Sequence record: PZ445540.1
Length of the DNA stretch: 40,233 bases
Reading direction: 5' to 3' (one strand)
DNA from: a phage
Each line of letters starts with the position of its first letter. The stretch's first letter is position 1. This document shows positions 21,548-37,931 of the stretch, piece after piece. A program made the translations under genes and the position numbers. A model generated the notes under the pieces. The model was not told the origin of the DNA. It made no database searches and was given only the letters and a program-made list of their open reading frames with translations.

Positions 21548-22840
21548 CTACTGCGCTACTAACATGCCTTGGGGCAGCGATGGGGCAAAGCGTGAAAGCG
21601 CCTGGTTAAGCAGAGAAACCTGTTCGGCACTCTTCTCTGACATCCACTTTCCATACACTTTGTAAACCATCTGAGCATCTGTATGCCCCATCTGAGTTGC
21701 TATAAAGTTTGGGTTTGCCCCAGCTGATAATGACCAGCACGCATAAGTGTGTCGTGACTGGTAGGCGTTGCGGTACCGTATTCCGGCGCGCTTGATTATC
21801 GGGGCCCAAATTTTATTAATCGAATTAACCGCGTAGTGATATCCTCTACGAGGCCCATGCTTGACGCATTGAGGACTGAAAACGAAAGTGCAGGGGTGTA
21901 TGACTGACTGGCCATATTCCCGCAATTTCACTTCAATCTCATACTGCCGGCCAAGGCGCGTCAGCTGGGCCTGATTCCTCAGGGCATCAATAGCTGGTTG
22001 AATGAGATAAATCACCCTGTCAGTGCCTGCGTCGGTTTTTGGCAGGGTGAACTCATTCGTCTGGGTAAGGTTGCGTTTCACTGTGATGGTTCCGGCATGC
22101 AGATCGATATCTTCCCACGCCAGACCGCACAACTCCCCATGCCTCATTCCAGTATAGACTGCCAGCGACCAGAGATTTCTCATCTGCTGGTGGCCGCAAG
22201 CCTGGATAAACCGGATAAACTCTTCTGTCGTGAGTGGGTCTGGTTCACCTTTCGCTTTTTTGAGACGGTTAATTCCGCTAAACGGGTTTTCCTTTGCGTA
22301 GCCGTTATCAGCTGCAAACTGGAAGATCTCGGCCATCAGCATCATGTAATTATTCACGGTCGAAGACTTCCTGCCTTGAACCTGTGTCCGGTGATCCTTC
22401 TTCATTACATGAAAACCCGTCAGCAACTCCTTTCTCACGTACAGCAAATCCTCAGTGGTCACCGCAGAAACCATTTTGTTTTCGCCGATGCGCGGAAGCA
22501 TGTTTTTTATGATGGATTCGTAACGACTCATAGTGTTAGAGCTGATTTCCATCCTCTTCAGCTCAGACCACTTTTCGGTAAGCTCCAGCACAGTAATTTC
22601 CTTTCTATCCTGACCGAACCGGGCAAGGTTCGGTGAGTTTGGGAATTTTTCCGCATAGTCAAAATTTCCCATCCTTATCGCAAAACAAACTGAAGAACGC
22701 AGCTCACCAGCTATCTTGCGATTTTTTGCAGTGTCAGGGACACCGAGGTTTTCCCTGACACGTTTACCTTTATACAGAAACCAGATGCGGAGCGAACCGC
22801 CGTGGTTTTCGACGCCTGTCGGGTATGATGCATTAGCCAT
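21548..22840 (-). CDS. int: tyrosine integrase
   Basis: Start set at ATG 22840 (RBS AGGAGGG), 430 aa; C-terminal catalytic region with 'HTYACW' motif typical of tyrosine recombinases. Confidence 0.9.
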   Translation of the reverse strand: MANASYPTGVENHGGSLRIWFLYKGKRVRENLGVPDTAKNRKIAGELRSSVCFAIRMGNFDYAEKFPNSPNLARFGQDRKEITVLELTEKWSELKRMEISSNTMSRYESIIKNMLPRIGENKMVSAVTTEDLLYVRKELLTGFHVMKKDHRTQVQGRKSSTVNNYMMLMAEIFQFAADNGYAKENPFSGINRLKKAKGEPDPLTTEEFIRFIQACGHQQMRNLWSLAVYTGMRHGELCGLAWEDIDLHAGTITVKRNLTQTNEFTLPKTDAGTDRVIYLIQPAIDALRNQAQLTRLGRQYEIEVKLREYGQSVIHPCTFVFSPQCVKHGPRRGYHYAVNSINKIWAPIIKRAGIRYRNAYQSRHTYACWSLSAGANPNFIATQMGHTDAQMVYKVYGKWMSEKSAEQVSLLNQALSRFAPSLPQGMLVAQ

Positions 22841-22884
22841 TGATCCCTCCTGACGTCCAGGAGCGTGGACGAGTGTACTGCTTT

Positions 22885-23139
22885 TCATGCTGTCTTCGCA
22901 CCTGGTTGATTTTTTTTCTGCGCCTCGATCCACTGATCAACGGCTTTTCTGTTGTACATGCATTCGCTCGAAGGCTTTGGATTGCCATCGGGTGAGATGT
23001 GCAGGTACTCGCGGCCCAGCATCCAGGATTCTTTTCTGGCGCGGGTGATGGTTCCGGGCTTGAGCCCGGTAACCGCAATCAGAACCTTTTCGCTAACCCA
23101 GTCATTCGGCACCAAAAGAACAACATCGCTCATACCCAC
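22885..23139 (-). CDS. xis: excisionase-like DNA-binding protein
   Basis: 84 aa; immediately upstream of and overlapping the int reading frame; RBS GAGGTG. Confidence 0.55.
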   Translation of the reverse strand: MGMSDVVLLVPNDWVSEKVLIAVTGLKPGTITRARKESWMLGREYLHISPDGNPKPSSECMYNRKAVDQWIEAQKKNQPGAKTA

Positions 23140-28036: not shown

Positions 28037-28744
28037 TCACCCATGCTTCCTGTAGGTCTGCGGCATGCTGCCGATCACCTTTCCGAAGATGAAAATTTTG
28101 TTCATCTCTTCCTTCTCGATTGGTTCCCATGGTAGATAGGTATGGTTGTCAGAGATAACTAAGAGTTTGTCTTTCATCTTTTGTAAGCGCTTAACATGCG
28201 ATGTGTCATCGTAGATGAACGCGTATATACCGTCGCCGTCGAAATGCTGAACGCTGATATCGACGAAGAGTAAGTCCCCTGGCTCTATGGTGCCAGACAT
28301 GCTATCGCCTCGAACGTTGATGATGCGTATCTGCTCCTGTTTCCGGCCATTAAACATTTGACGGGCATCTTCAACTGAGTATTCCACGGAGCGCAGCACC
28401 TCCACGAATTCGCTGTTAATTATGCCCGGGCCAGCACTTACGGTAAGGTCGAGTACGTCAACTCTGAAGATGGCTGGATCTTTTTTGTTATTCATCGGTG
28501 GGGGTGGTTGTTGGTCGTCACCCCTCATTGGTCCAGTACCGTTTGATAGCCACTCCGAACGAACACCCAGGGCATTAGCTATTTCAACGATTTTAGTTGT
28601 GCCTCTAGCATTTCCAGATGTTATTCGCCATATGGTTGGTTGTGCCATATTCGCCGCTTTGGCTAACTGACCCTGGCTCATGCCCATCTCATGCATTGCG
28701 TAGTTAAGTCTGTCAGCTAGCGTCTTAAGTGTTCTCTCTTGCAT
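28037..28744 (-). CDS. cI: CI-type repressor (HTH + S24 LexA-like peptidase domain)
   Basis: Start at ATG 28744 with GGAGG RBS, 235 aa; N-terminal HTH ('MSQGQLAKAANMAQPTIWRI'); C-terminal 'GDSMSGTIEPGD' Ser and 'HVKRL' Lys of the autocleavage dyad. Confidence 0.85.
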   Translation of the reverse strand: MQERTLKTLADRLNYAMHEMGMSQGQLAKAANMAQPTIWRITSGNARGTTKIVEIANALGVRSEWLSNGTGPMRGDDQQPPPPMNNKKDPAIFRVDVLDLTVSAGPGIINSEFVEVLRSVEYSVEDARQMFNGRKQEQIRIINVRGDSMSGTIEPGDLLFVDISVQHFDGDGIYAFIYDDTSHVKRLQKMKDKLLVISDNHTYLPWEPIEKEEMNKIFIFGKVIGSMPQTYRKHG

Positions 28745-28782
28745 ATTTATAGCCTCCGCTATCACATTCTAGTCAAGCATGA

Positions 28783-28829
28783 TAAACAAGTCTATTGCTC
28801 ATTCCAATAGCAATTGCTATCATTATTTT
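28783..28829. promoter_or_regulatory. OR operator cluster between cI and cro
   Basis: CTATTGctcattcCAATAG inverted repeat, perfect palindrome ATAGCAATTGCTAT and a GATAGCAA half-site. Confidence 0.6.
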
Positions 28830-28858
28830 GATAGCAACTGAACGGGATTAGCAAAAAA

Positions 28859-29077
28859 ATGAAATCAGCAATTGAAAGAGCTATTGATGCTGCTGGAGGA
28901 GTAAATGCTCTAGCTCGCGCTATAGGTGTAAAACAACCCTCTGTCTCTCGCTGGAGAAAGGTTGGTGTTGTTGGGGTGGAACATGTGCCTGATGTTGCGG
29001 CCTTTACTGGGATTCCCGCCCATGAACTGAGACCTGACAAACCAAAATTATTCCCGCACCCGGGCAATGAGGTGTGA
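28859..29077 (+). CDS. cro: Cro-like repressor
   Basis: 72 aa; HTH 'GVNALARAIGVKQPSVSRW'; divergent from cI across the operator cluster. Confidence 0.75.
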   Translation: MKSAIERAIDAAGGVNALARAIGVKQPSVSRWRKVGVVGVEHVPDVAAFTGIPAHELRPDKPKLFPHPGNEV

Positions 29078-29078
29078 C

Positions 29079-29276
29079 ATGTCACATCCAATCACTACCG
29101 AAAACCAAATAAAGCCATTGGATATCGATTATCGCGATCCGCGCGGTGTGATTGTGCATGTCACCGGCTGGAATCGGGATAAGCAGCAGGTGTACTTCAC
29201 CAGGCAGGATTATCCGCATGAATGCATGCAGCCTGTCTGGAAGTTTCAAAATTATTTCAGGAGGGTTGTGGAGTGA
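29079..29276 (+). CDS. hypothetical protein (cII position)
   Basis: ATG 29079 with RBS GAGGTG just after the cro stop, 65 aa; no HTH recognised. Confidence 0.4.
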   Translation: MSHPITTENQIKPLDIDYRDPRGVIVHVTGWNRDKQQVYFTRQDYPHECMQPVWKFQNYFRRVVE

Positions 29277-30205
29277 GCAATTTCTTACAGCTCGTTGATC
29301 GTCCAATAGCCTTTCAACGGTCCTTCGTTCGCCTTGGCGTGGGTATTACAGGTGCATTGCTATTGTCACAGATTGTCTATTGGCAGAACCGCATGGAAGG
29401 GAATTGGTTCTACAAAACCCAGTCAGATCTCGAAGAAGAGACTGGATTAACGCGTTACGAACAAGAGGGAGCGCGTAAAAAGCTGGTTTCCTGTGGCGTA
29501 CTGGAAGAAGCAAAACGTGGCATCCCAGCAAAATTATATTTCAGAGTAAACCAGGAGCGCTTGGAAGAACTTCTACTCGGCGAAAACCAGCATGCAGGTA
29601 TGGGGAAAACCAACAAACAAGGATGCGGAATTTCCGCAAACAGTGATGCGGAAAACCAGCATGCAGGTATGGGGAAAACCAACGAGCAGTCATGTGGAAA
29701 TTCCGCATCCATTCATACAGTAGATTACCAGGAGACTACACAGAAGATTAATACAGAGAATAAATATCTTGGTGCATCGGCTGAAGCCGACACACCGAAA
29801 GTGAAATCTTCAACTGATTATTCTCCTGCATTTGAAGAAGCCTGGCAGGCATACCCAAAACGTAGCGGTGGAAATAACAAGCTAAGCGCATTCAAAGCCT
29901 GGAACGCACGTATTAAACAGGGCGTAAAACCAGAGACGATGCTGGAAGGGGTTAAGCGCTACGCAGCTTTCATGGCCTCTGAGGGAAAGATCGGTACTTC
30001 GTTCGTCAAGCAGGCGGCGACGTTCTTCGGGCCGGATAAACATTTCGATGAACCGTGGCTGGTAGAGACCCAGGAAAACAAAGTCCCTACCCGACAAGAC
30101 CAGTCCCGCTACGAGTGGTACGCAAAGTCTGATGACGGCTCTGCCGAAGTGTTTATCAATCAGTCAGCGATCGATCGCATGAACCGTGGCGGGTATCGCC
30201 CATGA
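29273..30205 (+). CDS. replication initiator / replisome organiser with internal iteron-like repeats
   Basis: Start set at GTG 29273 (RBS AGGAGG 8 nt upstream, overlapping the upstream stop); N-terminal HTH-like region; two 69-bp tandem repeats inside the ORF. Confidence 0.6.
   Translation: MSNFLQLVDRPIAFQRSFVRLGVGITGALLLSQIVYWQNRMEGNWFYKTQSDLEEETGLTRYEQEGARKKLVSCGVLEEAKRGIPAKLYFRVNQERLEELLLGENQHAGMGKTNKQGCGISANSDAENQHAGMGKTNEQSCGNSASIHTVDYQETTQKINTENKYLGASAEADTPKVKSSTDYSPAFEEAWQAYPKRSGGNNKLSAFKAWNARIKQGVKPETMLEGVKRYAAFMASEGKIGTSFVKQAATFFGPDKHFDEPWLVETQENKVPTRQDQSRYEWYAKSDDGSAEVFINQSAIDRMNRGGYRP
29576..29720 (+). repeat. two ~69-bp tandem repeats with internal palindrome (candidate origin iterons)
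   Basis: gaaaaccagcatgcaggtatggggaaaaccaac occurs at 29582 and 29651; each unit ends in a tgcggaatttccgca-type palindrome; AT-rich stretch follows. Confidence 0.5.
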
Positions 30206-30312
30206 AAATACTCCTCAAGCGTTTGCTGGTGGCCGGATATAACCACGGCGTTCTGTGCGAGGGATTTGTGAGATGGTTTTTTGTTAAATTCGATTTACGG
30301 AGTTTGTGAGTT

Positions 30313-32184
30313 ATGAGCCCAGCTGAACTATCAGAAAAACTATGGGATAACGCTGAACGCGTCGCTAAGTTTCTCCTTCCGAAAGGACATCTGGAGGGGA
30401 AGGAGTGGTGTGCTGGCAATACGAACGGTGACTCAGGCAAAAGCCTCAAGGTCAATATCGGCGGTAAAAAATCATGGGCTGACTTTGCCAGCGGAGACAG
30501 TGGTGACCTGCTGGATCTCTGGGTGCTGGTGCGTAATTGCCAACTGCACGATGCAATGCGAGAGGCGAAAGAGTTTCTTGGCCTGAAAGATGACGATCAC
30601 CACTTCGAAGCGAAGAAAAAAACGTTCTCTCGCCCGACGAAGAAGGGCGTTAAATCGGCCAGCAAATGCTACGACTATCTTGCTTCACGTGGCATTACCC
30701 GTGAAACGGCCGATCGTTTTAAAGTGACAGATGCGGTGGTCTGGTACCACGACGAAAACCGAGAGGTGCCTGCCGTGGCATTTCCGTATATCCGGAACGG
30801 CGAACTGCTTCAGGTAAAACGTATCGGTACCGAACGGCCAAACGGCAAAAAGCTAATTATGGCTGAAGCTGATTGTGAACCATGCCTGTTTGGCTGGCAG
30901 GCGCTGGATAAAAATACCCGCCTGGTAGTGCTGTGCGAGGGGGAGATTGACTGCATGACCTTCACGCAGCTTGGCTATGATGCCCTGTCTGTTCCCTTTG
31001 GCGGCGGTAAGGGTGCCAAACAGCAGTGGATTGAATATGAATACCATAACCTCGATCGCTTCCAGGAAATTTGGCTGTGCCTGGACAACGACGATGTAGG
31101 CCGTGAAGCTGCAAAAGAAATCGCCAGACGTCTTGGGGAACATCGTTGCCGCATGGTTGAACTTCCCCACAAAGATATCAACGATTGCCTGATGAACGGC
31201 ATGGACAGCGACTCCATTCTGGAATACATGGAGCGCGCCAAATTCTTCGATCCCGATGAGCTTTGCTCAGCAGGGGACTTGCTTCAGGAAACTATCGAGG
31301 CATTCGAACATCGGGATACCGGTCTGTTTACAAGCCCATGGGCTTCGCTGAACAACAACTTTAAGTTCCGTGCCGGTGAACTGACCCTCGTCAATGGGGT
31401 GAATGGACATGGAAAAACAGAGCTCGTTGGACATATCGCGATTGATGCGATGAGTCAGGGCGTCAGGACGTGTATTGCTTCTCTGGAGCTTAAACCAGGC
31501 AAAATGCTTGCCCGACTCACGCGGCAAACCATCTGCACTTCCTCACCGAAACGTGAAGAAATCATTATGACCAACGAATGGTTTTCTGACCGCCTTTGGG
31601 TATTCAAACTTACCGGAACGGCCAAAGCAGACCGGCTTCTTGAGATTTTTGCCTATGCCCGGCGCCGCTATGGCATTGAGCTGTTCGTCATAGATAACCT
31701 GGCTAAATGTGGCTTAGACGAAGAAGACTACACAGGTCAGAAGGACTTCATCGATACGCTGTGCGACTTCAAGAACGAGCATAACTGTCACGTCCTGCTG
31801 GTTACCCACGCCAGAAAAACAAACGACTCCGCTCCAACCGGAAAGATGGACGTAAAAGGCACTGGCGCCTTAACCGACATGCCCGACAACGTTATGGCCG
31901 TCTGGCGCAACATTCCCCGTGAGCTGGCGCAGAGAAAAGCGGATCGTATGGGTTATGAGAGCCTCGACAAAGACGAACAGGCCGCGATCAATCTCCCCGC
32001 CTCAATGATTCGTTTGTTGAAGCAACGAGAAGGCGAAGGGTGGATCGGAGACATCGGAGCTAATTTCGACTCTCGCTCTCACCAGTTCCTGGAAGGCGAG
32101 AAAAAACCATTTAACTACCTGGTCGGTAAGCCGCAAAGCGAGCTTGATCTCGAGTGGGAAGCCAGCAACGTAACGAGGGTTTGA
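30313..32184 (+). CDS. bifunctional DNA primase-helicase (TOPRIM + DnaB/RecA-like)
   Basis: 623 aa; TOPRIM motifs ('VVLCEGEIDCMT', 'CLDNDDVGREAA'); Walker A 'GVNGHGKTE' and Walker B 'ELFVIDNLAK'. Confidence 0.82.
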   Translation: MSPAELSEKLWDNAERVAKFLLPKGHLEGKEWCAGNTNGDSGKSLKVNIGGKKSWADFASGDSGDLLDLWVLVRNCQLHDAMREAKEFLGLKDDDHHFEAKKKTFSRPTKKGVKSASKCYDYLASRGITRETADRFKVTDAVVWYHDENREVPAVAFPYIRNGELLQVKRIGTERPNGKKLIMAEADCEPCLFGWQALDKNTRLVVLCEGEIDCMTFTQLGYDALSVPFGGGKGAKQQWIEYEYHNLDRFQEIWLCLDNDDVGREAAKEIARRLGEHRCRMVELPHKDINDCLMNGMDSDSILEYMERAKFFDPDELCSAGDLLQETIEAFEHRDTGLFTSPWASLNNNFKFRAGELTLVNGVNGHGKTELVGHIAIDAMSQGVRTCIASLELKPGKMLARLTRQTICTSSPKREEIIMTNEWFSDRLWVFKLTGTAKADRLLEIFAYARRRYGIELFVIDNLAKCGLDEEDYTGQKDFIDTLCDFKNEHNCHVLLVTHARKTNDSAPTGKMDVKGTGALTDMPDNVMAVWRNIPRELAQRKADRMGYESLDKDEQAAINLPASMIRLLKQREGEGWIGDIGANFDSRSHQFLEGEKKPFNYLVGKPQSELDLEWEASNVTRV

Positions 32185-32187
32185 GAT

Positions 32188-33003
32188 ATGGAACTTGAAG
32201 CATCACTAAAACACTTTAGCCCTCAGGGTATGCACATCAGCGACGACGTGAAAGGAACCTCTCCGGACCGCCTTACAGGAACAGATGTAATGGCGGCGAT
32301 TGGCACCACCAGCAGCCGTGCGCGCTTCGGCCTGGCGGCGTTCTTCGGTAAAGCGGGAATCAGCAAAACCGATGAACAGCTCGCAGTTCAGGCGCTGGCG
32401 CGATATGCGATGGATGTCGCACCGAAGAATGTTCGCAAAGCAGCTGGTGGCCAGTTCGGATGGTGTATGCAGATGCTGGCGCAATTTGCCTTTGCTGATT
32501 ATTCCCGTTCGGCGGCTACCAGCGTGACGTGTCACAGCTGCAGCGGTACCGGACGAACAACCCGCGAGCAGATTACCCGCAAGGTTTCGTACCCATGGGG
32601 TAAAGCTCCATACTGGGCCTGCCGCTCTCGTGCTGTTCGACCGTCTGACTGGGAGCAGTGGACGGAGGTAACAGAGGTTGTACCGGCGGTCTGTGATGCT
32701 TGCGATGGCATGGGAACGATCAGCGCCCGTTGTCGTTGCGGCGGTAAAGGCGAGGTTCTAGACCGCAAAGCGACTAAAGACCGCGGCGCACCGGTTTTCA
32801 AAACGTGTGAACGTTGCTCTGGTAATGGCTTCTCTGCTATCTCCTCGGCGACGGTACACCGTGCCATTCTGAAGCGTCTCCCGGACCTTCATCAGTCCTC
32901 ATGGTCACGCAACTGGAAACCCTTCTATGAAATGCTGGTGGACACTTTGCGTCAGGGGGAGCGTCATGCTGCTTTAGAATTTGAGAAGGCAACAACTTAT
33001 TGA
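32188..33003 (+). CDS. Cys-rich protein with four DnaJ-type CxxCxGxG repeats (possible late-gene antiterminator)
   Basis: 271 aa; CSGTGR, CDGMGT, CGGKGE, CSGNGF repeats; sits where lambdoid Q genes sit, upstream of the late leader and lysis genes. Confidence 0.45.
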   Translation: MELEASLKHFSPQGMHISDDVKGTSPDRLTGTDVMAAIGTTSSRARFGLAAFFGKAGISKTDEQLAVQALARYAMDVAPKNVRKAAGGQFGWCMQMLAQFAFADYSRSAATSVTCHSCSGTGRTTREQITRKVSYPWGKAPYWACRSRAVRPSDWEQWTEVTEVVPAVCDACDGMGTISARCRCGGKGEVLDRKATKDRGAPVFKTCERCSGNGFSAISSATVHRAILKRLPDLHQSSWSRNWKPFYEMLVDTLRQGERHAALEFEKATTY

Positions 33004-33178: not shown

Positions 33179-33390
33179 CCCTCGTTCTGAGAGGACTCAT
33201 GGCGATGATGTATTGACCGCTACAATGGATTAGTCGTAACTTATTATTGTGGTGAATCCTTTCTAAGCGAAAGGGCGTTCCAGTCAACTGCTATCTGCAG
33301 GTATGCGCGCGGCTTTGCTGACTGTGGTTGAGTCACCGGGAGGCACCCGGCACCATGACAATAACAATATAAGTTTCAAATTCCTTGAGA

Positions 33391-33418
33391 GCCTGCTATA
33401 AAAAGCAGGCCTTTTTTT
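33391..33418 (+). terminator. intrinsic terminator 3
   Basis: gcctgctataaaaagcaggc followed by CTTTTTTT. Confidence 0.65.
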
Positions 33419-33575
33419 ATGGTTTTGTAATCTGCTGCTACGCTTTGAGTTGTGAGATGCGCCTACCTCTCTGGGGGTTCTCCTGAACCTATAGTGAATC
33501 AGCCCGATACTGTCTCACTCAGGTCAGTTAGCAAGACTCACGACTACCTACCTTACTTACTAATAGTCACTCATT

Positions 33576-35501: not shown

Positions 35502-35543
35502 GTGGCCATTACAAAGCTCACCTGCTGGTGGGCTTGATAATGG

Positions 35544-35592
35544 TTATCCCCTCTAAGGGATAAAGCACTGAATATCCCTTCTAAAGGATAAA
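35544..35592. promoter_or_regulatory. two tandem 22-bp palindromic elements
   Basis: TTATCCCctctaaGGGATAA and ATATCCCttctaaaGGATAAAT, 27 bp centre to centre; the second ends 4 nt before ATG 35595. Confidence 0.45.
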
Positions 35593-35594
35593 TA

Positions 35595-35789
35595 ATGAAA
35601 AACATACCAATGTCCGTTCATCACGAAGGTAAAGACTGGTATCCGTTCAGTGTGAACTTCTCAGATAATGAAGGACGTCAGTTCTCTTTCACCATCTACG
35701 CCATAAGCCGCGAGCACGCCTCCTACGTTGTACAGGAGATACGGGAAACGGCAACACTCGGTGATCAGTTAGTAAGCATCACCAAATAG
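35595..35789 (+). CDS. hypothetical protein
   Basis: 64 aa ORF immediately after the tandem palindromes. Confidence 0.4.
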   Translation: MKNIPMSVHHEGKDWYPFSVNFSDNEGRQFSFTIYAISREHASYVVQEIRETATLGDQLVSITK

Positions 35790-36473: not shown

Positions 36474-37931
36474 ATGCAGGTCACTATTGATGGTGTCCCA
36501 TACGCTCCCGCCAGCGTCGTTTCATCACGGATCGGCATTGCCATTTCGACGCATCAGCGTGCAGACGTTTTAAAACGAGCACTCGAACAGCACATGAAGC
36601 ATCTTCCCGCCGGCGCGCTGGTGGTGGTTGTCGATGATGGTTCAAAACCTGCAGCGGTAGTTCCCCACGGCGTGCAGCTGCTTCGCCATGAAACATCACT
36701 CGGCATTGTTGCTTCGAAGAACACCAGTCTGTCAGCCTTGATGGATGCCGGGTGCGAGCATCTTTTTCTGTGGGATGATGATGCCTGGCCGATTGCTGAT
36801 AACTGGCACCTGCCTTACATCGAATCACCCGAGCCACACCTGGCTTACCAGTTTCTCGATCTTGCTGGCACGAACAAGCTGAATGACCTTTCGGTGCTTT
36901 ACCGTGACGATCAGCATGTGGCGTACACCGGGCAGCGCGGCGTGATGCTTTATTACCACCGCAGCGCCATCGAGAAGGTAGGCGGATTCGATCCGGTTTA
37001 TGGCCGGGGCATGTATGAGCACAGCGACCTCGCCTTGCGCATCCATAACGCAGGACTGACTACGTGGGCTTACGCTGATGTCCTCGGTTCAGAAAAGCTG
37101 ATTCATTCCCTTGATGAGCATGAAGCCGTAGAGCGTTCGGTACCGAAACCAGATCGACAGGCGCTGGTAGAACGTAACGTTAAAATCCATAACGAACGGC
37201 GCGATGCCGGGTTTACCGGTTCCGTGGATTATCGGCGGCAGCGCGACGTGGTTATCACTACTCTGCTGACCAGCCAGTCAGATCCGCAGCGCGGTACGAA
37301 AATGTCCGCCGCACCTGACATGCTGACCCGTTGGGCTTCCTCGCTTCGGAATTGTGGTCGTATCGCGCTGGTGGATGAACTGCAGACGGCACCGGCAGAC
37401 GTTGAGCTGTATCGCGTTCCTGACGTGAAGATGAATGTCTACTTCCGGCGATGGCTGCATATCTGGCAGCACCTGCGTGATCATCCTGAATACCGGTTCG
37501 TCTGGTGTACCGATGGTACAGATGTCGAAATGCTCCGCGCACCGTGGGAAGAAATGCAGCCCGGTACTGTTTACGTCGGTTCTGAACCGAAGACCTACGC
37601 CGACACCTGGGCAAAGCAGAATCATCCTGAGCGTATCTATCAGGAGTTCATCGAAGCGCACCGCAACGATGTGATGCTAAACGCTGGTCTGCTGGGTGGT
37701 ACCCGCGCTGATGTAATGGCGTTTGCCCACGGCATCATCCGTCTTTACTACCGGATCGAGAGTTATCGTTTCTGGAAGAAAGAACAGGCTGGCGCCGCGG
37801 TGGGGGATATGATCGCTTTTGGCATTGTTGCTAAGTCTTTTGGCGATCGCATTGTCACCGGACCGCGCATCCATACAGTGTTTAAGTCAGAAGGAATCGG
37901 TAAAGAGTACGCATGGTTCAAACATAAGTAA
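36474..37931 (+). CDS. glycosyltransferase (family 2-like GT-A N-terminal domain + unknown C-terminal domain)
   Basis: 485 aa; 'GIAISTHQR...LVVVVDDGS' nucleotide-sugar-binding motif and 'FLWDDDAWP' DxD-like motif; no TM segment. Confidence 0.7.
   Translation: MQVTIDGVPYAPASVVSSRIGIAISTHQRADVLKRALEQHMKHLPAGALVVVVDDGSKPAAVVPHGVQLLRHETSLGIVASKNTSLSALMDAGCEHLFLWDDDAWPIADNWHLPYIESPEPHLAYQFLDLAGTNKLNDLSVLYRDDQHVAYTGQRGVMLYYHRSAIEKVGGFDPVYGRGMYEHSDLALRIHNAGLTTWAYADVLGSEKLIHSLDEHEAVERSVPKPDRQALVERNVKIHNERRDAGFTGSVDYRRQRDVVITTLLTSQSDPQRGTKMSAAPDMLTRWASSLRNCGRIALVDELQTAPADVELYRVPDVKMNVYFRRWLHIWQHLRDHPEYRFVWCTDGTDVEMLRAPWEEMQPGTVYVGSEPKTYADTWAKQNHPERIYQEFIEAHRNDVMLNAGLLGGTRADVMAFAHGIIRLYYRIESYRFWKKEQAGAAVGDMIAFGIVAKSFGDRIVTGPRIHTVFKSEGIGKEYAWFKHK

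What the first reader, a model, noticed from the sequence alone, without database searches (positions are those of the whole stretch)
29576..29720. Iteron-like 69-bp tandem repeats inside the replication initiator gene
Two ~69-bp units, each containing GGAAAACC sub-repeats and a tgcggaatttccgca palindrome, lie within the initiator ORF and are followed by an AT-rich stretch. This mirrors lambda ori inside the O gene and also produces a repeated peptide segment (ENQHAGMGKTN...) in the protein.
Basis: partly seen in the sequence, partly recalled or inferred. Interest (0 to 1): 0.45.

Follow-up and report, generated by a model that had tools for sequence, protein, structure and literature searches.

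The report
Phage replication origin inside initiator gene
The repeats are real and are almost certainly this temperate phage's replication origin, built like phage lambda's inside its own initiator gene: an ordinary kind of element, in an initiator family whose origin I found no description of.

Summary
The elementary unit is 23 bp, not 69 bp. Six units lie at 29576-29713, and three of them make one in-frame 69-bp superunit.

Each unit is a 21-bp dyad, G-nnTGCGG-AAAAC-CCGCA-nn-C. The units fall in all three reading frames, and wobble positions are no more variable than the others. The constraint is therefore on the DNA, not on the peptide.

Directly downstream lie four degenerate ~12-bp units of the type CAGAGAnTAC (29717-29764). 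They include the least stable DNA of the replication module. A weak GC-rich inverted repeat follows at 29771-29796.

The array sits in the part of the gene that encodes a predicted disordered linker. Upstream is a confidently predicted winged-helix N-domain. At the far end is a 29-residue tail that travels with the downstream primase-helicase.

All 65 distinct homologous genes from viral contigs, and most annotated phages checked, carry a 22-23-bp array at the same place. Most are followed by the same 12-mers, including Staphylococcus phage 37. A phage with the same helicase but a different N-domain has no such array.

Copy number varies between relatives, from 3 to 9 units.

Verdict: a lambda-type origin in an uncharacterised O-like family; function is inferred, not shown.

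The parts
29273..30205 (+). Replication initiator gene (310 residues, GTG start after AGGAGG). It encodes an N-terminal winged-helix domain, a disordered linker, a helical middle domain and a C-terminal tail.
   Evidence: ORF. RefSeq places the same start in near-identical prophages. PHROG 9773 'replication initiation O-like' scores 1.3e-49 and phrog_270 scores 1.4e-48. There is no Pfam or NCBIfam hit.
29273..29587 (+). Coding region of the N-terminal winged-helix domain (residues 1-105), the presumed iteron-binding domain.
   Evidence: The AlphaFold2 model has pLDDT above 90 for residues 11-100, with helices 24-40, 50-57 and 61-74, a beta-hairpin wing at 77-92 and helix 94-106. Foldseek matches winged-helix DNA binders and the N-domains of staphylococcal plasmid initiators 4pql and 5kbj, but only weakly, with no match at E <= 0.001. 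7,833 clusters at 50% identity match at E <= 1e-3.
29576..29713 (.). Iteron array: six 23-bp units starting at 29576, 29599, 29622, 29645, 29668 and 29691. Each is a 21-bp dyad centred at unit position 10 (29585, 29608, 29631, 29654, 29677, 29700). Units 3 and 6 are the best palindromes.
   Evidence: All six units keep the near-invariant family positions G4, G7, A9, C13, C16 and C20. Unit 3 has T instead of A at position 10. Within the close clade, units 3, 4 and 6 vary least.
29717..29764 (.). Four degenerate ~12-bp units: ACAGTAGATTAC, CAGGAGACTACA, CAGAAGATTAAT and ACAGAGAATAAA. The family consensus is NN-CAGAGA-H-TAC. This is the candidate DNA unwinding or loading element, and it includes the A+T-rich minimum at 29737-29766.
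   Evidence: This is the least stable DNA of the replication module and the least variable part of the gene (nucleotide diversity 0.009 against 0.06-0.075). GC at third codon positions stays near 0.3 in all lineages.
29771..29796 (.). GC-rich inverted repeat GGTGCATCGGCT-ga-AGCCGACACACC. It may bound the unwinding region. Support is weak.
   Evidence: Inverted repeat I7. An inverted repeat of differing sequence sits at this place in most lineages. Its score exceeds GC-matched controls overall (16.0 against 13.0). For this window alone, 17% of controls score as well.
29588..29872 (+). Coding region of the predicted disordered linker (residues 106-200), in which the origin elements are embedded.
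   Evidence: pLDDT is below 50 for residues 106-200.
30116..30202 (+). C-terminal 29-residue tail, WYAKSDDGSAEVFINQSAIDRMNRGGYRP. It is the candidate docking motif for the primase-helicase.
   Evidence: This is the only segment shared (76% identity) with the otherwise unrelated initiator of phage CharmingMan, whose primase-helicase is 98% identical.
30313..32184 (+). Primase-helicase gene (Toprim domain plus DnaB-like/RecA-type ATPase). This is the replicative partner presumably recruited to the origin.
   Evidence: Pfam Toprim_2 at 7.3e-13, AAA_25 and DnaB_C. PHROG 239 'DNA primase/helicase' at 5e-145.

Best explanation
The segment 29576-29796 is the phage's origin of theta replication. It lies inside the gene of the protein that fires it.

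Inferred mechanism:
1. Dimers of the initiator's N-terminal winged-helix domain bind the six 21-bp dyads (G-nnTGCGG-AAAAC-CCGCA-nn-C), which are spaced every 23 bp.
2. The central A-tracts and the 2.2-turn spacing let the DNA wrap into a nucleoprotein complex like lambda's O-some.
3. The resulting stress opens the adjacent low-stability 12-mer region at 29717-29766.
4. The initiator's C-terminal tail brings in the phage primase-helicase encoded just downstream.

Because 23 bp is not a multiple of three, the array can only grow or shrink in frame by three units (69 bp). This explains the 69-bp superunit, the repeated peptide and the two-or-three-superunit variants.

What is shown: the anatomy, the DNA-level constraint, the family-wide conservation, the link between array and N-domain, and the fold of that domain.

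What is inferred: binding, unwinding, helicase recruitment and origin activity.
For: 1. The periodicity is far beyond chance and is confined to this spot.

2. The constraint is on the DNA.
- The 331 units from 63 loci have the same information profile in all three reading frames. Mean information at codon positions 1, 2 and 3 is 1.16, 1.15 and 1.16 bits.
- In 18 close relatives, segregating sites by codon position are 0.10/0.02/0.57 in the N-domain. They are 0.22/0.17/0.28 in the iterons and 0/0.06/0.12 in the 12-mers.

3. Each unit has dyad symmetry centred on position 10, with r = 0.77. The pairs G4-C16, G7-C13 and G0-C20 are complementary in 97%, 88% and 85% of units.

4. Conservation across the family.
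- All 65 distinct homologous genes from viral contigs have lag 23 or its multiple 69 as the strongest repeat. In the remaining four lag 23 ranks second or third, behind the 12-bp repeat. In 64 of the 65 the array lies at about residues 96-156; in L077 it lies at 208-232.
- The same holds in annotated phages of E. coli (Stx-converting phages), Salmonella, Vibrio, Pseudomonas, Burkholderia, Acinetobacter, Pasteurella, Aggregatibacter, Fusobacterium and Staphylococcus. The period is 22 bp in one of them.

5. Natural swap. Phage CharmingMan has a 98% identical primase-helicase but a different N-domain, and it has no such array.

6. The 12-mer region is the least stable DNA of the module. Its third-position GC stays near 0.3 even where the flanks are at 0.75-0.9. 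Its wobble positions are nearly invariant while two replacement positions vary.

7. The array lies in DNA that encodes a disordered linker next to a confident winged-helix domain.

8. The layout matches lambda and P22, whose origins lie inside gene O and gene 18 (PMC8022706, PMC7466680).
Against: - No experiment on any member of this initiator family was found.
- The initiator matches no Pfam or NCBIfam model. Its profile aligns to lambda O and P22 gp18 only weakly: probability 11%, over the helix-turn-helix segment only.
- Units 1, 2 and 5 have degenerate right half-sites and vary most among close relatives, so not all six units need be bound.
- In the close clade, the family-invariant motif positions are not measurably less variable than the others: 8 of 42 against 23 of 96.
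- The window's own 12-mers are degenerate, with core spacing of 11-14 bp.
- The downstream inverted repeat is not significant for this window on its own.
- Two distant members, Lactobacillus Ld25A and Flavobacterium Fpv11, show no clear 23-bp array.
Confidence: 0.8

Rival explanations
1. The array is a cluster of weak DnaA boxes, or sites for another host or phage protein. On this view the host initiator or a regulator binds it, not the phage initiator. It would act in control, for example by titration or handcuffing, rather than as the start site.
For: Read on the other strand, four of the six units are TTTTCCGCA, TTTTCCCCA (twice) or ATTTCCACA. Each is one mismatch from the DnaA box TTWTNCACA. 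Lambdoid Stx phages are reported to differ in their need for DnaA (PMC7466680).
Against: - The array sequence changes with the lineage of the N-domain, while the DnaA box is universal. Staphylococcus phage 37 has GATTGTTAAGTTTCTTAACAATG and Acinetobacter TRS1 has ATGCACAATTCCGCCATACTGA.
- The family consensus has G where the DnaA box needs A.
- About 1.5 one-mismatch DnaA-box hits are expected by chance in this 1.1-kb stretch (my estimate).
- The dyad symmetry, the 23-bp spacing and the absence of the array when the N-domain is swapped all fit a cognate dimeric binder better.
Confidence: 0.08
2. The repeats are only a slippage-prone, tolerated expansion of a flexible protein linker. Any selection acts on linker length or on the peptide, and the DNA has no function in cis.
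For: The region encodes a disordered linker. Copy number changes in frame by 69 bp. Variants such as P0004 show the same amino-acid changes in all superunits, which points to recombination between repeats.
Against: - The three 23-bp units of a superunit are read in three different frames and encode different peptides, yet keep the same nucleotide motif.
- Wobble positions are as conserved as the others.
- The 23-bp period and the invariant G/C positions persist across genera in genes whose linker peptides are unrelated.
- The adjacent 12-mers keep A/T-ending codons in GC-rich phages.
Confidence: 0.04
3. The true origin lies elsewhere in the genome. This array is an accessory site, for example for autoregulation of the initiator or for interference with related phages.
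For: Origin activity has not been measured. Cloned phage origins are known to inhibit related phages by titrating their replication proteins (PMC3349717, PMC4488673).
Against: - No other copy of the iteron core exists in the 40-kb window.
- No other periodic array of comparable strength exists in the window.
- The array directly abuts the least stable DNA of the replication module, with a near-constant junction across the family.
- No promoter-like site lies within the gene for the array to regulate.
Confidence: 0.06
4. The palindromes act at the RNA level, as hairpins, a minus-strand terminator or an antisense RNA.
For: One terminator-like site on the minus strand coincides with unit 3, at 29638-29624.
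Against: One terminator-like site was found where 1.7 are expected by chance. The equivalent palindrome in unit 6 has no T-run. There is no Rfam hit in the region. A strict 23-bp phasing of dyads is not a property of RNA elements.
Confidence: 0.02

Closest known systems
Phage lambda ori with the O protein (and the Stx phages 933W and P27)
   Same: - The origin lies inside the initiator gene, in the region encoding the inter-domain linker (lambda residues 117-145, here 102-147).
- It is an array of dyad-symmetric iterons with an AAAAC centre, spaced about 23 bp apart.
- An A+T-rich, purine-skewed unwinding region and then an inverted repeat follow directly downstream.
- Iteron number differs between relatives: 4 in lambda and 6 in Stx phages (PMC7466680).
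   Different: - No detectable sequence membership: there is no Pfam hit at all, so none to lambda O's own family, and the profile comparison gives 11% probability.
- The half-site is different (TGCGG rather than TCCCTC).
- The spacing is strict at 23 bp.
- The unwinding region is made of conserved 12-mers rather than a plain A+T-rich tract.
- The partner is a phage primase-helicase, not a P protein that recruits host DnaB.
Salmonella phages P22 (gene 18) and L (gene 18)
   Same: Each initiator carries its own iterons inside its own coding region (PMC8022706). P22 has about four repeats with a 24-bp period, followed by repeated ACAAAAGACAATA units that loosely resemble the 12-mers here.
   Different: The iteron sequences differ. 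The P22 and L partners are DnaB-type helicases. P22 gp18 groups with lambda O in sequence, not with this N-domain family.
Iteron plasmids such as RK2 oriV with TrfA
   Same: Direct repeats bound by a winged-helix initiator lie next to an unwinding element built of repeated 13-mers. In those plasmids the initiator also binds one strand of the 13-mers in a sequence-specific way (PMC4081077, PMC4980987). This is the best precedent for a sequence-specific role of the 12-mers.
   Different: Plasmid iterons lie outside the rep gene. They are bound by monomers carrying two winged-helix domains, and DnaA boxes are part of the origin. Here the sites are dyads inside the gene.
Staphylococcal multiresistance-plasmid initiators of the RepA_N type (PDB 4pql, 4pt7, 5kbj)
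   Same: These are among the structural matches to the N-domain model: a winged-helix initiator domain solved in complex with iteron DNA.
   Different: The match is weak (E about 0.01, TM-score 0.45-0.58) and no better than generic winged-helix regulators such as CodY, TFE-alpha and MarR. There is no sequence similarity.

Membership tests
Lambda-type phage origin embedded in its initiator gene | An array of at least three direct repeats of about 18-24 bp, each with internal dyad symmetry | tested here: met
   Six 23-bp units, each with a dyad centred on position 10 (r = 0.77).
Lambda-type phage origin embedded in its initiator gene | The array lies within the initiator's coding sequence, in the segment between its DNA-binding and partner-binding domains | tested here: met
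   The array spans residues 102-147. The model is confident for residues 11-105 and has pLDDT below 50 for 106-200.
Lambda-type phage origin embedded in its initiator gene | An A+T-rich, easily melted region directly beside the last iteron | tested here: met
   29737-29766 is 77% A+T, is the least stable 30-bp window of 28766-32184, and lies at the 99.8th percentile of the window.
Lambda-type phage origin embedded in its initiator gene | The initiator binds the iterons | not testable with these tools
   Indirect support only: a winged-helix fold, an array that travels with the N-domain and is absent when that domain is swapped, and iteron sequences that differ between distant lineages.
Lambda-type phage origin embedded in its initiator gene | The segment supports initiator-dependent replication | not testable with these tools
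   This needs an origin-plasmid assay or marker-frequency mapping.
Lambda O protein sequence family | A significant match to lambda O or its curated family model | tested here: not met
   No Pfam family matches, even at E <= 10, for seven family members. The profile comparison with lambda O and P22 gp18 gives 11% probability. Only PHROG groups annotated 'O-like' match.
oriC-like cluster of DnaA boxes | Several matches to TTWTNCACA that are conserved across hosts | tested here: not met
   There are only one-mismatch matches. The family consensus has G at the critical A. Distant members have unrelated units.
Iteron plasmid origin (Rep with two winged-helix domains) | Iterons outside the rep gene, bound by monomers, with DnaA boxes alongside | tested here: not met
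   The array is inside the gene, the sites are dyads, and there is no exact DnaA box in 29200-30300.

The most novel reading that the evidence does not exclude
The 12-bp units NN-CAGAGA-H-TAC beside the iterons are not just A+T-rich filler. They would be a sequence-specific unwinding or loading signal shared by this whole initiator family.

They are kept nearly letter for letter from E. coli, Pseudomonas and Burkholderia phages to Staphylococcus phage 37, while the iterons diverge. They would be read as single-stranded DNA by a conserved surface of the initiator, or used by the incoming helicase or primase, much as 13-mers and DnaA-trios are used in plasmid and chromosomal origins.

The 'TETT/TEIT' peptide repeat seen in more than half of the family's representative proteins would then be a by-product of a DNA signal.
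Probability: 0.4. Interest if true: 0.6.

Novelty: new member of a known kind. Interest (0 to 1): 0.4.

Why it matters
- It locates the likely replication origin of a temperate phage type that is common as a prophage in Enterobacter, and also found in E. coli, Klebsiella, Citrobacter and Salmonella. No origin appears among the features annotated across this gene in the public records examined.

- It gives a simple rule for annotating origins in a very large initiator family that matched no Pfam model (7,833 clusters at 50% identity). The rule is: a 23-bp dyad array, then CAGAGAnTAC repeats, directly after the winged-helix domain.

- It warns that the repeated peptides and 'TETT/TEIT' motifs in these proteins reflect DNA signals, not protein function.

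- The fixed geometry and the natural module swaps make this a convenient system. The N-domain goes with the iterons and the tail goes with the helicase. This could help in studying how origin specificity and helicase choice are recombined in phages.

- Cloned origins of this kind could be used for phage interference or as conditional replicons.

Tried and rejected
- **Curated family models.** Pfam and NCBIfam scans of the initiator gave nothing.
- **Solved structures by sequence.** The PDB sequence search with the N-domain profile returned only chance hits.
- **Homology to lambda O.** The profile comparison with lambda O and P22 gp18 is too weak to claim homology.
- **Fold search.** It gives a generic winged helix only, with no match at E <= 0.001.
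- **First large protein search.** It returned only near-identical proteins. These were useful for copy number but not for divergence.
- **Downstream inverted repeat.** As a third conserved element it is enriched over GC-matched controls across lineages. It is not significant for this window alone, and the lineages are not independent. I kept it as weak evidence.
- **DnaA boxes, IHF sites and GATC clusters.** Only one-mismatch DnaA-like matches lie inside the iterons. There is no IHF consensus and no GATC enrichment.
- **Promoters, terminators and Rfam.** Nothing beyond chance in the region.
- **Literature.** Searches for phage SaltyDalty, for the 12-mer sequence, and for origins of Aaphi23, F116 and BcepIL02 found no description of this origin type. 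The paper on replication units of Stx phages does not mention iterons.
- **Within-clade test of invariant positions.** Family-invariant iteron positions are not measurably less variable than the rest: 8 of 42 against 23 of 96.

Full report
**1. Context**

The window is a lambdoid temperate phage. The 1.7-kb stretch around the finding (28700-30400) is 100% identical to Escherichia phage SaltyDalty, PP925825.1. The initiator gene is 99.6% identical to the copy in a prophage of E. coli MS 115-1.

The gene order around the finding is as follows:

| Coordinates | Strand | Gene |
|---|---|---|
| 21548-22933 | - | integrase |
| 28037-28765 | - | cI-like S24 repressor |
| 28859-29077 | + | Cro/YdaS-like protein |
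| 29067-29276 | + | DUF4222 protein |
| 29273-30205 | + | initiator |
| 30313-32184 | + | Toprim plus DnaB-like primase-helicase |
| 32188-33003 | + | Q-like antiterminator |

The initiator matches no Pfam or NCBIfam model. It does match PHROG families annotated 'replication initiation O-like' (phrog_9773, 1.3e-49) and 'replication initiation protein' (phrog_270, 1.4e-48).

**2. The observation**

The repeat is real and lies at the stated coordinates.
- Tandem Repeats Finder reports period 23, 5.2 copies, score 98.
- Written in register, the array is six 23-bp units in the pattern A B C A B C'.
- Autocorrelation is 0.68 at lag 23, against a window mean of 0.25 (sd 0.045). It is 0.81 at lag 69. 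These are the two strongest periodic signals in the 40-kb window.
- The core TGBGGAAWWYC occurs seven times in the window, all inside the array. Shuffles give 0.74 on average.
- The A+T-rich stretch is also real. 29737-29766 is 77% A+T and is the least stable 30-bp stretch of the whole replication module.

**3. DNA signal or protein signal?**

Because 23 mod 3 = 2, successive units are read in all three frames and encode unrelated peptides.

I collected 331 units from 63 distinct loci.
- The information profile is the same in each reading frame.
- Mean information at codon positions 1, 2 and 3 is 1.16, 1.15 and 1.16 bits.

I also compared 18 distinct close relatives. Segregating sites by codon position were:

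| Region | Position 1 | Position 2 | Position 3 |
|---|---|---|---|
| N-domain | 0.10 | 0.02 | 0.57 |
| Iterons | 0.22 | 0.17 | 0.28 |
| 12-mers | 0.00 | 0.06 | 0.12 |

The N-domain shows the usual pattern of a protein under selection. The iterons are flat across codon positions. The constraint is therefore on the nucleotides. The repeated peptide ENQHAGMGKTN... is a by-product.

**4. Anatomy of a unit**

The family consensus is nATGCGGAAAACCCGCAnnCAAG, with near-invariant G4, G7, A9, A10, C13, C16 and C20.

The profile is dyad-symmetric about position 10, with r = 0.77. The pairs G4-C16, G7-C13, T3-A17 and G0-C20 are complementary in 97%, 88%, 62% and 85% of units. Each site is thus a 21-bp dyad with an A-tract centre, and neighbouring sites are separated by 2 bp.

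Lambda's iteron, TCCCTC-AAAAC-GAGGGA, has the same plan, with spacings of 20, 24 and 23 bp.

In the window all six units keep the near-invariant positions except that unit 3 has T at position 10. Units 3 and 6 are the best palindromes. Units 3, 4 and 6 vary least among close relatives.

**5. What follows the array**

Directly after the last unit come four degenerate ~12-bp units (29717-29764) of a family-wide motif, NN-CAGAGA-H-TAC.

This stretch is constrained as DNA.
- It is the least variable part of the gene, with nucleotide diversity 0.009 against 0.06-0.075 elsewhere.
- Its third-codon-position GC stays near 0.3 in every lineage, even where the flanking coding sequence is at 0.75-0.9 in Pseudomonas-type phages.
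- Its wobble positions are nearly invariant, while two amino-acid-changing positions vary. One caveat: instances were selected by similarity to the motif, which inflates that figure.

A GC-rich inverted repeat follows at 29771-29796. An inverted repeat of different sequence occupies this place in most lineages. It scores above GC-matched controls overall (16.0 against 13.0). For this window alone the signal is not significant, and the lineages are not independent. I treat it as weak evidence.

**6. Comparative evidence**

A profile of the N-domain retrieved 80 viral contigs.
- In all 65 distinct genes, a 23-bp array is among the strongest internal repeats. The top lag was 23 in 41 genes, 69 in 20, and 12 in 4. 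In those last four, lag 23 ranked second or third.
- In 64 of the 65 the array lies at residues 96-156. In L077 it lies at 208-232.

The same holds in annotated phages. These are Stx-converting phages of E. coli and phages of Salmonella, Vibrio, Pseudomonas, Burkholderia, Acinetobacter, Pasteurella, Aggregatibacter, Fusobacterium and Staphylococcus. One Acinetobacter phage has a 22-bp period.

The unit sequence differs between distant lineages. Staphylococcus phage 37 has GATTGTTAAGTTTCTTAACAATG. The 12-mers, however, are nearly the same in that phage: ACAGAGATTACT, encoding TEITTEITTETT.

Two distant members, Lactobacillus Ld25A and Flavobacterium Fpv11, show no clear 23-bp array.

The C-terminal domains and the helicase partners differ among family members, so the array goes with the N-domain.

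Phage CharmingMan provides a natural swap.
- Its primase-helicase is 98% identical.
- Its initiator shares only the last 29 residues (76% identity).
- It has no 23-bp array.

**7. Copy number**

- E. coli EC2001 and several Enterobacter and Klebsiella prophages carry three superunits, giving nine units and 333 residues.
- More distant relatives carry 3, 4, 5 or 6 units.
- One variant, P0004, shows the same substitutions in all its superunits. This suggests recombination between repeats.

**8. The protein**

AlphaFold2 predicts a confident winged helix-turn-helix for residues 11-105 (pLDDT above 90). Residues 106-200 are predicted disordered, and the C-terminal part has moderate confidence.

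Foldseek finds winged-helix DNA binders, including the N-domains of staphylococcal plasmid initiators solved with iteron DNA. No match reaches E <= 0.001, and no specific family stands out.

The N-domain family is very large: 7,833 clusters at 50% identity match at E <= 1e-3. Of 136 representatives of at least 200 residues, 79 carry the four-residue 'xE[TIN][TI]' repeat at a median position of residue 137. This is the protein shadow of the 12-mers.

**9. Mechanism**

*Shown:* the anatomy, the DNA-level constraint, the conservation, the link to the N-domain, and the fold.

*Inferred, by analogy with lambda (PMC7466680, PMC12663957) and with iteron plasmids (PMC4081077):*
- Initiator dimers bind the dyads.
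- The phased A-tracts and the 2.2-turn spacing wrap the DNA.
- The 12-mer region melts.
- The C-terminal tail recruits the primase-helicase.

**10. Rivals**

- **A DnaA-box cluster.** The units read backwards are one mismatch from TTWTNCACA. This does not fit the lineage-specific unit sequences.
- **A mere linker expansion.** The three-frame conservation rules this out.
- **An origin elsewhere.** This is unlikely, because no other copy of the core and no comparable array exists in the window.
- **An RNA element.** There is no support.

**11. Verdict**

The finding is correct: this is a lambda-type origin inside an O-like initiator gene. The kind is well known (PMC8022706). This initiator family's origin appears undescribed in the searchable literature, but older subscription papers could not be searched.

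The conserved 12-mer element is the most interesting loose end.

Noticed in passing
L101:1408-1540 (Staphylococcus phage 37) compared with window 29717-29764: A Gram-positive phage whose N-domain is only about 33% identical has different 23-bp iterons. They are followed by 12-mers (ACAGAGATTACT) almost identical to those of E. coli, Pseudomonas and Burkholderia phages. What reads this motif is unknown.
   Followed up: partly
window 30116-30202 and L003:3649-3735: The last 29 residues of the initiator are the only part shared (76% identity) with the otherwise unrelated initiator of phage CharmingMan. That phage's primase-helicase is 98% identical. The tail may be the helicase-docking motif.
   Followed up: partly
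window 29273-29584: The N-terminal winged-helix domain matches 7,833 protein clusters at 50% identity, yet no Pfam model matches any of seven family members tested, even at E <= 10. Some representatives (P0241, P0249) carry two or three tandem copies of the domain.
   Followed up: partly
window 29601-29701, minus strand: Read on the minus strand, four iterons are one mismatch from the DnaA box consensus TTWTNCACA. Host DnaA might bind weakly in enteric hosts.
   Followed up: partly
window 33218-33421 (+): This is the only Rfam match in the window: the sRNA family STnc100 (59.3 bits against a gathering score of 47). It lies between the Q-like antiterminator gene and the holin gene. It may be the leader of the late transcript.
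   Followed up: no
window 35537-35599: Two copies of a ~28-bp unit, each holding the palindrome TTATCCC-n6-GGGATAA, lie just upstream of a small ORF that starts at 35596. A glycosyltransferase gene lies downstream at 36474-37931. This may be an operator pair.
   Followed up: no
P0004 (Enterobacter roggenkampii variant with three superunits): The same two amino-acid changes (M to V and I to N) appear in all of its repeat units. This indicates concerted evolution, or gene conversion, among the 69-bp blocks.
   Followed up: no
window 29455-29723, both strands: Three ORFs of 43-85 codons overlap the array: 29455-29712 (-), 29541-29708 (-) and 29592-29723 (+). They are most likely by-products of a repeat that lacks stop codons, not genes.
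   Followed up: no
window 29222-29276: The ORF can also start at ATG 29222, giving 327 residues as in some database entries. That start overlaps almost the whole end of the DUF4222 gene. GTG 29273, preceded by AGGAGG, is the more likely start.
   Followed up: partly
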